From: Podarcis gaigeae
Taxonomy: Eukaryota
NCBI GenBank assembly: GCA_964106915.2
Contig: OZ066917.1
Length of the DNA stretch: 64,000 bases
Reading direction: 5' to 3' (one strand)
Part shown: positions 25,301 through 31,300 of the stretch, piece after piece
Layout of the letters: each line of letters begins with the position of its first letter
Numbering within the stretch: the first letter of the stretch is position 1
Position numbers and translations under genes: made by a program
Notes under the pieces: model-generated
The model's database searches: none
Told to the model about the DNA's origin: nothing
The model's input: only the letters and a program-made list of their open reading frames with translations

Positions 25301-28300
25301 CTTTGATGTTAAAGTCCACTAATCAGTAACATGAAATAGTCAACCAAGTTTATTTCTCTCTTCCAAAAGTTTTCTTATTTGGACCCCTTGCAGTTATGGA
25401 ATATTTAAACATATTAATTCACTGGTACACTTCTCAACTTCTCTTAGAGAAAACAAATTATTTTGAAACAGATACCCAAGCTGCCTGTTGTACAGCTAAG
25501 CATGCTGATCTTCAGCAGCAACCCCTGAAGTACTAAAAACTGAGCTTTGCCCCACCACCTTGTGACTCGCCATTTGAAGGTTATTAGGGCAGACAGTCCA
25601 GAGTGAGGCTTCTTTCTTTAAATATGTAGCTCTCAACCTTTCTCCATTGAATGCTTATTCTGCCGCTGTATGATTAGTATATCTAATAGCATAGTATAAG
25701 AGGATGCATGAAGCAATATTATAGAGGAAGATCTGTTCCACGCAGAGTAGTCAAATTATCATTAGATTTAATGGTATCATTATAATTATAATAGCTGATC
25801 CTGTAAGTGCTTCTTTCAAGCCATCTGTACCTAGACAGCTGTTAATATATCTTGTTAGACAAAGAATAAAAGATACATTGCCTGGTGAGGTGTTCAGTGT
25901 AAAATTATACTTTATTCTAAAACTTGGGTCTTCATTATTTAAGAATACATCTTCTACTTAGTATGTATTATAGATATTAGAGAGGCTTAGTAGTTTTGCC
26001 AGGCTCATTAATGCCCATGACATTTCTTTCCTTCTCCATATTTTTTCTGTAGGACCATAAAAACCATCTTAAGATAAACATACTACTTTTTGAACTTCCC
26101 AAGTTCTTTCTGTGTAATTAAACATTGCTAGGGCCCTCGGCTGAGTGAAGAGATTTTAACCCCTCTGCCCAACCAGCTCTGTGTCTGTTTTAATTTCCCT
26201 TTTGCTGCCACTGCCCCCAAACTCTGTGGTGTCTAGCAAGGACAGAACAGTTACAGATAGGTAGCCGTGTTGGTCTGCCATAGTCAAAAAAAATTCCTTC
26301 CAGTAGCACCTTAAAGACCAACTAAGTCAGTTCTTGGTATGAGCTTTCGTGTGCATGCACACTTCTTCAGATACACTGTGTATCTGAAGAAGTGTGCATG
26401 CACACGAAAACTCATACCAAGAACTGACTTAGTTGGTCTTTAAGGTGCTACTGGAAGGACAGAACAATTAGTGTGGAGACCTAATCCATTTTCCAGGGCA
26501 GGGGTTACCAATCCCCGGTTTTGATTTTAAATCAGTATACCGGATTGTGACATTGCTGATTTTATTATAAATACAATGTTGTGTTTCTTAGCCCCTTGAG
26601 AAATGTTTGTTTATTTTTTTATTAGAATGTCTTAGCCAAAAGGACTTATTGACCCCAAAATAATATTTTGCCTTGTTTACTTGGGGTACGTATATCCAAA
26701 AATGCTTTCCTGTGACCAGGAATAAGCCCTTCTCAAACACAAGAAAGAGGTTATGTCTAGTGCGGTCATTTTTCTACTGCATGCCTGGCATTATTCAGCT
26801 GGAAGAGAGGTCACTATCCATCTGGTAGAGCTGGGTTTGGAGACATTTACAAAAATGCACAGGGCAGTGTGTGTCAATTAAGGAATTAGTCTAGATACTG
26901 GGATGCCCTTGTAAGGTACTTGGAAAATTATACATTGAAGGCTTTCTCAGAGAAAAGAAAGGTAGAGGGAGGATAAGAATTGAGATGACTGCAATGTCCA
27001 GAAGGCTGTGATGCTTTAGAGTTCAAGGGACAGGAGGGGCTTTGAAGTGGTGCAGTGGAAAGCTAACAACGGCAAGGTTACTGTGTATCAGGGAAAGTTC
27101 AAAAGGCAGGCAGTTCTCCTCAGTCAAAACTTTGCCAGTCAAAGATCAGTAGATGAGGAGGAGCACAGAAAACCAAAGTGGGAGTTTACAAGTCATAAGG
27201 CTAAGCTTATCCCAGGAAGATATGTCCTGGGATTCAGAAAGCAGCCAGGTCAGCAACGCCACTCTCCAAAAATCTCTTTGTGTTCAGTGTTTAAGAAGTG
27301 CAAGAATGGACGCCAAGCCAAGAGTTCCAAAAGCCAGTGAGGCTGTGTCAACACTGCTCTTGAAATTCCACCACTTTGGAATACCTTAATCCAGTTATAG
27401 TTTTAGAAACCAAAGGCTCGCGAAAGCATGGGGCTTTTGTCATTTGAATGAATGAATGCAAGCATGTACCCTGTGCCTATGTGAATGCACACATTTGGAG
27501 CAAGTGCACAGCAATGTATGGTGCATATACTCTTTCTAAGGATAAAATAAGGATAGGTCCAAACAGCATTACATGGAAGAGGGAGCAAGGTTGGAGCACA
27601 GCTTCTAAATTTTCAGCCAAGTAAACAACTCTATTGATATACACTAGTCGATAAATAAACGGATTGTCATTTCTTTATCATTTTTCCCCTTTCAGCTGAC
27701 TGCGGTGGACCATTTGACCTGTGGGAACCAAACACTACATTTAGTTCCATGAATTATCCAAATAATTACCCCAACCTAGCCTCTTGTAAGTACTGTAACT
27801 TCAGAACTTAATAAATGTTTGTTTGTTTGACAACATTTATATACCACTCAATCAACAAAACTCTGTTAAGCAATTTACATCATAAGCTGTTATTAGACTG
27901 GATGGAATATGGTATGTGGTCATGAACCGTGCTTATACATGAGGAAAATCTTATGAACCTACTAGGAGCCTAGAAAGGTACACTGTGCTTAAACACTACA
28001 CCAAAATGGTTGCATTCCCTCTTTTTTTTTGGTGTGGAATAGGGGTGGACTGGACTGTTAATTTCAGTTCTCTCAGTTTCTCATTTTTCCAGTCTTAAAC
28101 TCCTCCCCACATTTCTGCAGTAATTTGCTATTTTAAAACTAATAATAATTATGAGCATTTATTTTTTCTAATAAACACATTTTTGTATGCAGTTTTGACT
28201 GATGTACATATTTTTGCAAGCAGTTTCCCTAATAAAGTGCATTTGTTTGTTATTTTCACCAAAATATTCATTTTTATGTATACTTACACAGGATATATGT

Positions 28301-31300
28301 ATTTTTGTAGACACTGCTTGACTGGAGAACTGTATCGCACAATTAAGAAAAGTATGAATTTTAAAGATTCCTGTGTTTTGGTTCTCATTGTATCAGAAAG
28401 TATGAATTAGGCATGATTGCCTCTGAATGCAAACTGAATCAAATTTCTTCACTGTCCCTAGTGTGAAATAACATGGTTCTTTATTTATGGTTCCCTTTGC
28501 CCACAGCCTGCAGTAAAAGGTGCAATTTCCAAAAAAAAATCAAAATGCAGTTTTGATTGTGTCTCTCTGTATTACATAGAACACAGTCAGATAATTCCAA
28601 GTAAATGATTGTAGGATGTATTGATGTTCAAAGATGTTCATACTGAAAGGTAGAGCATAAATGGAAGAAGTGACATGCCAGAGTGACTTCACATGAGGCA
28701 GGAATTGGTTTTATATTCATTCTCAGACTGGAAGAGAATGTTGTTATGTCTGCCTCTTTGCTTAAGCTGCTACTCATATCTCTCTATGTGGAGATGTTGA
28801 TAAATCAAAGCTCTAGTATATCTATAAAACAAAGGGACTGTTTGTCTTTTATTTCCTAGGTGTATGGTATTTAAATGCAGAGAAAGGAAAAAATATCCAA
28901 CTTCATTTCCAGTACCTTGATCTGGAAAATATTAATGACGTTGTAGAAATCAGAGATGGCACAGGAACTGGTTCTTTATTTTTAGGCAAGTATAACCCAC
29001 AAATTTATGCAGAATTAGAATACTGTGTGTGGTTGAGCAGTATTTCATATTTTCTGGAAAACACAGGCGACCTTAGTTAGTTAGTTAGTTAGTTAGTTTA
29101 AAAAAAATGCACAATGAAAGTTGCTTATAGTACATTTGTGACAATTTCACTGAGCTGAGCATGAGATAATATTTTGATGGTTTATCCTTGCTAGAGTTAA
29201 AAATATAACATCAATAACACTAGCTGCAACAATGCAGGTGAAACTAGAAGTGGGCAGGTTCTACTCTGGAAACAATTTGGTGGGCTTTTCACACAGACTT
29301 CACTGAAACTTCCAAATTGGCTGGTATAGTTTAAAAGAATTACAGAGAGGTCTTTCTGGACTCTGAAATGCCGTTTATCCCATGATGCTCCATAGGTTTC
29401 TGTGTAGTAAGGCTTTCAGTGTGTCAGGCATTGTTGTAGCACCATTGTAGCATGTTGTACCACAATGTGGTAGAGAGGCTTCCATGCATATGTGGCAGAT
29501 TCTAGTAGTGAACCCACAACTTGCTTGAACCAGAACTGCTAATAGATTACAGATGTTGGTCCTGTTTCAGGTACATTTTCCCACAAATTCCAGTTTGGGC
29601 AGAATTCACCAATATATGTGGATGAAACACATTGAAAGAATTCAGGATACTTTTTCTAGACTAGTCTTAAAAAACTGTGTCCCCTAGATATAGATGAAGG
29701 ACAATGGCATTTTTTTCACTCATAAAGTTATGGAGTTGGGTTTTTTCTTCTTATTTTTATGTATAACAACACTTCACACAATTTCTAAGCAGAAAGCATT
29801 TGACCTGTATCTAAAATATACATATTTCTGTTTTCTCTATGGGTAGCTGTATATACAGGGAAGTCCCCGGTGCCAGATATATTCTCTACGACTCATCAGA
29901 TGACTGTATTCTTTATTACTGACGATTCTGTAACTAAGAAAGGATTTGCAGCCAATTTCACTACAGGATACCATTTAGGCATGCCAGGTGAGATTCACAC
30001 TTACATATTTTTAATCAAAAAATTTAAAAGGGCACATGAAACTGTGAACAATCCTATGCATGTCTACTTAGAAGTTAGTTTCATTGGGTTTAATGGAGCT
30101 TCCTCTATTACAGTGTATAAGGCTAAAGCCTTCAAATGTAATTCACATTTCTGTACTCCAAAGAAGCTCAGCAGGGATGATTTGCTGCAGAGAACCGGGG
30201 GGGGGGGGGAGGGAACTGCCCTCTTCTCACTTTCCCCTGAGATTCCTTGTCAACTCCATACACTTCTGTTTCCTGTGGGATGCCAGGCTGTGTTTGCCTT
30301 TAAATACATTGGTCTAAGAAATCATGGGCTTTCAGAGAGGAAATAGTATGAAGAAAAGGGTTAAGCATCCTCCCTGCTCTTTCCCCACTGCAAATCACCT
30401 TCTTCTGATGACAAATGGAGGAACAAAAAGAAAGAAGTGGCTGTTGGACTAATGTTGGTTATCAGGGTAACCTAGTATCTCTTCACAAGAAGAGGTTAAC
30501 TAAGCCCTTTTGAACTGTAAGTCCTTCTTGCAGGAGTTGCAAGAATGCCCTTACACATGAGAGACCAGAAAATTGCCTCAAGTTTCTAAAGATAAAATGG
30601 ATTCAGATTGTGTTTATTAACATTATGTAGAATTCAAGTTCAGTACAATAATTAAAATGCTACATTTTTATGGCCAATGATACATATTTTTATTTTACAG
30701 ATCCCTGTGGTCCCAATTATTATCAGTGTGGAAGTGGAGAATGCATCCCGCTGGTTTACCTTTGTGATCAATCACAGCACTGTAAAGATAATTCTGATGA
30801 ATCAGACTGTGGTAAATCTTTATTTCAAAAACGAAAACAAACTACCTACTTCTAATACATGTGACATTCTTGAATAAGTAAAAAAAAAAAACCTCAATAA
30901 GCAATTGTGATATATAGAATATCTTCAGGGAGGAAAGTAGATGTTAAAAACTTTGCTTTACTATCACAGCTATCTGAAGAAGTGTGCATGCACACGAAAG
31001 CTCATACCAAGAACTGACTTAGTTGGTCTTTAAGGTGCTACTGGAAGGAATTTTTTTTGTTTTGACTATCACAGCTTGTTCACAAACCTTTCTTACCTAA
31101 GTGTAATGAACAATATGCCTATCCTTGATCATCTATAGCAGTTACTTTATCTTGTTTGACTGTGGCATCACAACGCCTTTCCTGTGCTAATCTCTCTCTC
31201 AAAAAATGTGGGGAACTAAGAACTCTGTTTACAGAGATCACTAGTTAGAAAACTAAGTCATCCTAACACTACTTTATGGGTTTTTGCTTTCACTGGACAA

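What the first reader, a model, noticed from the sequence alone, without database searches (positions are those of the whole stretch)
26238..31076. Young Penelope-like insertions put hammerhead ribozymes in enteropeptidase introns; only the antisense copy is intact
Seen: three near-identical motifs GUAU-CUGAAGA-A-[GUGUGCAUGCACAC]-GAA-AGCU-C-AUAC. The copy at 26337-26374 (-) is perfect. The sense copy at 26380-26417 has AGCU>AACU, the only difference between the 82-bp arms. The sense copy at 30971-31007, about 160 nt after the exon 17 donor, has stem I cut to 3 bp. Both insertions have about 12-bp flanking direct repeats. Known: Penelope-like retroelements carry minimal type-I hammerheads whose palindromic stem III needs dimerisation to cleave. 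Inference: two sense copies in one pre-mRNA could pair as a dimer and cut the transcript, so the lesions may reflect selection; alternatively weak cleavage may modulate the gene. With n=3, chance is not excluded.
Basis: partly seen in the sequence, partly recalled or inferred. Interest (0 to 1): 0.75.

Follow-up and report, generated by a model that had tools for sequence, protein, structure and literature searches.

The report
Penelope stubs in enteropeptidase introns
Two young stubs of a jumping gene with about 9,000 perfect self-cutting RNA motifs in this genome sit in enteropeptidase introns; one motif is predicted to be locked in a hairpin, both flaws recur at many other copies, so they are likely ordinary insertions that do not cut or regulate the gene.

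Summary
In detail: three minimal hammerhead motifs in two insertions with 12-bp target duplications, in introns of an enteropeptidase gene. They are 5'-leader stubs of an active Neptune-type Penelope family (intact 911-aa RT/GIY-YIG copy; 9,021 perfect motifs genome-wide). Insertion 1 is absent from all 8 runs laid, including two of the best-matching organism; insertion 2 is present in those two only. The lesions are ordinary: 48 copies share the stem III change, 817 the 3-bp stem I, and only 29-58% of arms are perfect, so the pattern has a chance of about 0.1. The 26380 copy is predicted to be locked in an 82-bp hairpin (about 60 kcal/mol to free), so the proposed heterodimer is implausible. 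A strand test on 110 calibrated loci found no significant bias (exposed intact copies 23 sense-like, 25 antisense-like). A hint of depletion remains (exon sense, 7 antisense, p 0.07). Copies end at the likely RNA start, not at the cut site, and both arms share one template. The scan found this kind before in other lizard and shark genomes.

The parts
26238..26249 (+). Insertion 1, left target-site duplication (12 bp)
   Evidence: empty-site join 26237->26455 in 8 of 8 runs
26250..26376 (-). Insertion 1, tail-bearing arm: element 5' leader from the likely RNA start through the hammerhead, U tract, ORF start codon and 36-nt tail
   Evidence: maps to the pLTR-ORF junction of full-length copy L205
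26337..26374 (-). Perfect minimal hammerhead motif, antisense to the host gene
   Evidence: 9,021 identical copies
26378..26459 (+). Insertion 1, inverted tail-less arm; forms an 82-bp hairpin with the first arm; last 5 nt are microhomology with the target
26380..26417 (+). Sense hammerhead with G15.2A at 26410; C17 at 26413; predicted locked in the hairpin
   Evidence: 48 copies with this change
26455..26466 (+). Insertion 1, right target-site duplication
27696..27785 (+). Host exon, CUB2 start (exon 14 by recalled numbering)
   Evidence: Pfam CUB; boundaries read
28860..28985 (+). Host exon, CUB2 middle (exon 15), GC donor
29847..29987 (+). Host exon, CUB2 end (exon 16)
30701..30811 (+). Host exon, LDL-receptor-A-like (exon 17)
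   Evidence: translation; no Pfam hit; name recalled
30960..30971 (+). Insertion 2, left target-site duplication; last base shared with the element
   Evidence: empty-site join 30959->31065 in X4, X5, X19
30971..31069 (+). Insertion 2, single tail-less arm of the element leader
   Evidence: 99% to L205 pLTR over 99 nt
30971..31007 (+). Sense hammerhead with intact core and 3-bp stem I; C17 at 31003; not hairpin-locked locally
   Evidence: 817 copies start this way
31065..31076 (+). Insertion 2, right target-site duplication

Best explanation
Both inserts are short stubs of an active Neptune-type Penelope retrotransposon family, likely made by copying the uncut 5' leader of the element's RNA into the target site, and their hammerhead motifs are likely inert passengers in the enteropeptidase pre-mRNA. 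Shown: family identity, copy number, target duplications, empty sites, and the stereotyped layout (one arm ending at +125, an inverted arm ending near +89, both running to about -4 to -7, just below a TATA-like box). Inferred: the element's protein nicks both target strands 12 bp apart and primes cDNA at two internal sites of one RNA; both cDNAs run to the RNA's 5' end, which lies within a few bases of stem I, and are joined head to head. The 3-bp stem I is then end-loss at that junction, and the G>A is a routine substitution. Predicted: in insertion 1 the sense motif cannot fold because it pairs with its mirror arm; the lone motif of insertion 2 has no free partner in this transcript.
For: Full-length copy L205 has pLTR-ORF-pLTR with RVT_1 and GIY-YIG. 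15,506 tag hits and 9,021 perfect motifs. 74 of 94 sampled insertions have an inverted partner arm; 48 of 168 arms are perfect; 12 of 168 have a 3-bp stem I. Same lesions in 48 and 817 copies. 72 of 168 arm 5' ends lie at -10..0, 2 of 168 at the cut site. Arms share the subfamily base in 54 of 55 fold-backs, against 40% discordance expected, and in 27 of 72 the partner reaches >15 nt further 5' than the tail arm, so it is not a copy of it. Hairpin -174.3 vs -114.8 kcal/mol with the motif freed; active heterodimer -2.4 vs inactive duplex -29.3. Strand test not significant. In gene-assigned fold-backs with one competent arm it is sense in 6 and antisense in 5. PMC11167929 reports two internal RT start sites, extension of both strands, unprocessed RNA as template, and no cleavage without protein.
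Against: Exposed intact copies near recognisable exons were 1 sense and 7 antisense (p 0.07), and 5 vs 12 at strong skew. G12A, which removes a catalytic base, is in excess over its CpG partner (607 vs 428; tail control 287 vs 313). The motif at 30971 has an intact core and is locally free. Folding energies ignore tertiary contacts and proteins. The RNA start is inferred from motifs and copy ends only. No RNA data were available.
Confidence: 0.8

Rival explanations
1. Exposed, intact motifs do cut host pre-mRNA at a low rate (in trans dimers among thousands of copies, or helped by the element's protein), so selection filters out such sense insertions; the survivors in genes, as here, are weakened or hairpin-locked.
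For: Exon sense to 7 antisense for exposed intact copies, against 2 to 2 for exposed dead and 6 to 5 for locked ones (Fisher p 0.24 and 0.15). Best mixture fit gives sense weight 0.10-0.18 and antisense 0.24-0.32. G12A excess. Retrozymes are under-represented in Xenopus introns (bioRxiv 10.64898/2026.07.22.740005, passage).
Against: Skew signs 23 to 25 for 48 exposed intact copies; mean -0.007, se 0.006; not different from controls (p 0.44); the symmetric model fits within 0.6-0.8 log units; a no-sense model is worse by 1 to 16 log units depending on the assumed intergenic spread. L124 holds an exposed intact copy 0.8 kb downstream of a same-strand exon-like frame (gene name recalled, no Pfam hit). 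G12A is in both arms in 4 of 16 fold-backs (p 0.016), so part of the excess is likely inherited from dead templates. Six of the 8 exon calls for this class lack a Pfam hit or rest on recall.
Confidence: 0.13
2. The inserts act on the gene as double-stranded RNA, not as ribozymes: the 82-bp hairpin is edited or cut by dsRNA enzymes, or arm 1 pairs with insertion 2 and loops out exons 14-17 (468 nt, in frame).
For: Arm 1 and insertion 2 are 100% complementary over 89 nt; duplex -163.8 vs -153.2 kcal/mol for the local pair; exon lengths 90+126+141+111.
Against: The local hairpin forms first and lies 4.6 kb upstream; only carriers of insertion 1 have it; most insertions of this family are hairpins, so tolerance is likely. 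No RNA data.
Confidence: 0.05
3. Weak cleavage by these motifs tunes enteropeptidase expression as a selected function.
For: Only position: sense motifs in introns; insertion 2 is shared by two samples of one organism.
Against: Both sites are empty in close relatives and insertion 1 also in the same organism; sequences are 98-100% identical to the mobile family; no free dimer partner.
Confidence: 0.02

Closest known systems
Minimal hammerheads (min-HHR) in pLTRs of metazoan Penelope-like elements (Cervera and De la Pena 2014, PMC4209133; results and discussion read)
   Same: Conserved core, extra base between 9 and 10.1, G10.1-C11.1 pair, 4-bp helix I, palindromic 15.2-16.2 with no loop 3; thousands of mostly single or opposite-strand copies from truncated elements.
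   Different: Helix II here is a perfect 14-nt palindrome (5-6 bp as a hairpin, 7-8 bp in the paper), predicted to favour an inactive duplex between copies; copies are far more uniform (9,021 identical).
EN+ PLE insertions with inverted pLTR, 30-40-bp tail and TSD; Neptune clade (PMC8557442, PMC3846280; passages read)
   Same: Head-to-head inverted 5'-truncated arm, 36-nt tail on one side, TATA and initiator-like motifs in the pLTR, ORF start inside the pLTR/tail, C-terminal GIY-YIG with a Cys-rich linker.
   Different: PMC3846280 explains the palindromes by self-priming on an antisense template; here the arms share a template variant yet often neither arm contains the other, which fits two primings on one RNA better.
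Poseidon element of Anolis carolinensis in vitro (Frangieh 2024, PMC11167929; main text read)
   Same: Two internal RT start sites bounding the tail, both target strands extended, uncut RNA as template.
   Different: Other clade; there the ORF starts in stem II, here 93 nt downstream of the core.
Non-LTR retrozymes (bioRxiv 10.64898/2026.07.22.740005; first part and passages read)
   Same: Short non-coding hammerhead-bearing PLE derivatives.
   Different: Retrozymes are head-to-tail tandem repeats; these are dispersed single or head-to-head stubs with target duplications.

Membership tests
Minimal type I hammerhead of PLEs | Core C3-A9, G12-A14, U16.1, H17 with a base between 9 and 10.1 and G10.1-C11.1 | tested here: met
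   all three copies; descriptor from PMC4209133
Minimal type I hammerhead of PLEs | Palindromic stem III positions that allow a dimer | tested here: met
   met at 26337 and 30971; broken at 26410 in the 26380 copy
Minimal type I hammerhead of PLEs | Match to an Rfam hammerhead model | tested here: not met
   no hammerhead family at E<=1; the minimal form lacks helix III, so this says little
Minimal type I hammerhead of PLEs | Self-cleavage as a dimer | not testable with these tools
   folding predicts the active dimer 19 kcal/mol above an inactive duplex; no pile-up of copy ends at the cut site
Minimal type I hammerhead of PLEs | Covariation of the helices across families | not tested
   only one young family was sampled
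EN+ Penelope-like element, Neptune type | Single ORF with RT and C-terminal GIY-YIG | tested here: met
   L205, 911 aa: RVT_1 E 9.5e-12, GIY-YIG E 7.8e-6; the window holds only non-coding stubs of it
EN+ Penelope-like element, Neptune type | CX2-5CxxC linker between RT and endonuclease | tested here: met
   CX4CxxC motif in the L203-L206 translations; criterion from PMC8557442
EN+ Penelope-like element, Neptune type | Placement in the Neptune clade by RT phylogeny | not tested
   no reference PLE proteins were on hand; Nematis also has the linker
EN+ Penelope-like element, Neptune type | pLTRs, inverted 5'-truncated arm, 30-40-bp tail, TSD | tested here: met
   (TSD-like repeat 12-14 nt in 55 of 94)
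Non-LTR retrozyme | Head-to-tail tandem units each with a hammerhead | tested here: not met
   single and head-to-head copies only in this window
Conserved, domesticated intronic hammerhead (as in amniote RECK; recalled) | Presence at the orthologous site across species | tested here: not met
   insertion 1 empty in 8 of 8 runs; insertion 2 empty in X4, X5, X19 and, with a shifted join, X10

The most novel reading that the evidence does not exclude
Penelope minimal hammerheads cut host transcripts in vivo often enough that exposed, intact, sense-strand copies are purged from introns about two-fold, while the fold-back layout of most insertions locks the ribozyme and lets the family fill genes unharmed.
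Probability: 0.13. Interest if true: 0.65.

Novelty: new member of a known kind. Interest (0 to 1): 0.22.

Why it matters
The locus is ordinary. The family is useful: about 9,000 identical motifs, split into exposed, locked and dead classes, make the open question whether Penelope hammerheads cut in vivo testable by simple counts in an annotated genome. The copy ends also give in-genome support for the two-start-site, both-strand insertion model so far shown in vitro for another clade.

Tried and rejected
Rfam scan: no hammerhead model hit. Run search: no RNA holder listed, so expression and cleavage are untested. AT-skew on 3-kb loci: dropped after calibration, as only 4 of 8 had the right sign against 22 of 22 for 10-kb loci; the pooled 26 to 25 count is therefore not used. 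Exon finding with Pfam: low recall (4 host-gene hits among 134 candidates), so many gene calls rest on my recognition; L101, L004, L001, L022, L126, L127, L130, L230, L128, L147, L181, L237 were left out of the direct counts because the insertion may lie outside the gene or the gene was unsure. The gene name for L124 could not be confirmed. Fold-back by copying the first cDNA: rejected as the general route. A cryptic acceptor made by insertion 2: score only 2.6 against 2.3 for the pre-existing site, not pursued. Host selection as the cause of the G12A excess: not preferred, since 4 of 16 fold-backs carry it in both arms and in L169, L184, L198 it is on the antisense arm. Literature on strand bias of such motifs: 1 unrelated paper; 0 papers. 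Lunse 2017 (PMC5785218) was not seen beyond its citation. Look-up of earlier findings by sequence: nothing.
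Full report
Observation. The host gene is enteropeptidase on the + strand (CUB, MAM and trypsin domains). By recalled human numbering the inserts lie in introns 13 and 17. The host looks like a lizard (recalled resemblance, not tested).

What the inserts are. 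A 30-nt tag outside the motif has 15,506 exact hits in the 1.51-Gb genome, and the perfect motif 9,021. The family's coding part has at least 150 copies at 97-100% identity. L205 is a full pLTR-ORF-pLTR copy with a 911-aa frame, RVT_1, a CX4CxxC linker and GIY-YIG: Neptune-type by the criterion in PMC8557442 (passages). The window's arms match its pLTR-ORF junction at 96-100%. Taking C3 as 0, a TATA-like box starts at -37, an initiator-like motif lies near -7, and the start codon at +93.

Age. Contigs of 8 of 8 runs join 26237 to 26455, leaving one copy of the repeat; these include X1 and X3, two samples of the best-matching organism. Insertion 1 is thus polymorphic or private, though contigs can hide a second allele. 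Insertion 2 is present in X1 and X3, empty in X4, X5 and X19, empty with a shifted join in X10, and undetermined in X6 and X7.

Layout and mechanism. Of 96 stretches centred on a tail variant that is blind to the motif's state, 94 were scored. 74 have an inverted partner arm. Tail arms end at +122 to +125, most partners at +82 to +97: the 30-40-bp tail of the literature (PMC3846280, PMC8557442; passages) and the two RT start sites of PMC11167929 (main text). 72 of 168 arm 5' ends lie at -10..0; exact calling gives a mode at -4 (27 of 108). Only 2 of 168 lie at the cut site (+29..31), the same rate as the 30 ends over +14..60; a second set adds 2 of 36. So the templates were likely uncut and began at stem I. 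The two arms share the subfamily base at +42 in 54 of 55 cases (40% discordance expected), and in 27 of 72 the partner reaches more than 15 nt further 5' than the tail arm. This fits two cDNAs primed from both target strands on one RNA (inferred). Insertion 1 is such a pair; insertion 2 is a lone tail-less arm.

Are the lesions special? The stem III change occurs in 48 copies, 0.5% of the perfect count. The 3-bp stem I occurs in 817 and follows from where the RNA likely starts. G>A is the commonest difference between arms (16 of 58).

Could the sense copies cut? Folding the pre-mRNA across insertion 1 gives -174.3 kcal/mol for the hairpin and -114.8 with the motif freed; the motif's own stem II has probability 3e-19. 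For isolated strands the active dimer scores -11.1 (perfect pair) and -2.4 (26380+30971), against -30.6 and -29.3 for an inactive duplex through the palindromic stem II. These are secondary-structure predictions only. Published min-HHRs show no monomer activity and low dimer activity (PMC4209133; PMC6765202, passages), and the Anolis motif cut only with protein. The copy at 30971 keeps its core and is locally free, so a low trans activity is not excluded.

Strand test. Without annotation I used T-over-A skew in masked 10-kb flanks as a proxy for the host's sense strand. It had the right sign in 22 of 22 loci with recognisable exons (mean +0.040), but in only 4 of 8 3-kb loci, which were dropped or extended. 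Exposed intact copies (n 48): 23 positive, 25 negative, mean -0.007, se 0.006, p 0.20; at |skew| >0.03, 5 against 12. Exposed dead (n 27): 14 to 13. Locked intact (n 35): 18 to 17. Exposed intact against the rest p 0.44. A full purge predicts -0.010 to -0.015, so the test cannot exclude partial depletion; the best fit is about two-fold, not significantly better than symmetry. Direct exon calls, partly made blind and partly recalled: exposed intact 1 sense (L124) and 7 antisense (L003, L012, L023, L109, L260, L261, L262), p 0.07; exposed dead 2 and 2; fold-backs with one competent arm 6 sense and 5 antisense. The samples were picked by several patterns and over-represent contigs C1-C3 and C8. 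This is a hint against my reading, not a result.

CpG control. G12A occurs in 607 copies and C11.1U in 428, while a tail CpG gives 287 and 313 against 7,562 unchanged (p 2e-5). The excess could be selection, sequence context or dead source elements. G12A is in both arms in 4 of 16 fold-backs (p 0.016), which favours inheritance from dead templates, with arm-to-arm conversion as an alternative.

Verdict. Two young, ordinary stubs of a known kind of element; the ribozyme-dimer and regulation ideas are not supported at this locus. I found no paper on strand bias of these motifs. Earlier notes of this scan describe the same layout in other lizard and shark genomes. Supplements were not read. Interest 0.22; the family-level depletion idea has probability about 0.13.

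Noticed in passing
window 12284-12478: A second long hairpin, about 195 nt with 94% self-complementarity, in an earlier enteropeptidase intron; unrelated to the Penelope leader.
   Followed up: no
window 40460-40531 (-): tRNA-like stretch (Rfam tRNA 39.4 bits), likely the head of a SINE.
   Followed up: no
window 28985-28991: The intron after the middle CUB2 exon starts with GC, a non-canonical donor.
   Followed up: no
window 26285-26373 and 30971-31059: Perfect 89-nt inverted pair flanking exons 14-17 (468 nt, in frame); could loop out or circularise them in carriers of insertion 1.
   Followed up: partly
window 53359-56819 (-): C-type lectin exons of a chondrolectin-like gene (name recalled) converging on the enteropeptidase gene.
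   Followed up: no
L167, L175, L195, L196; L086/L087: Fold-backs with the same inactivating change in both arms, suggesting that elements with a dead ribozyme still serve as templates.
   Followed up: partly
G000:C2:122499865-122599710: Nine evenly spaced copies about 12.5 kb apart, each with both CpG changes: a tandem segmental array that carries the element.
   Followed up: no
L203, L204, L205: Three copies with open frames of 921-966 codons at 98% identity to the family; L204 sits inside an LTR-retroelement-like sequence.
   Followed up: partly
window 28055-28200 and 30150-30200: High-depth repeats of other families in introns 14 and 16.
   Followed up: no
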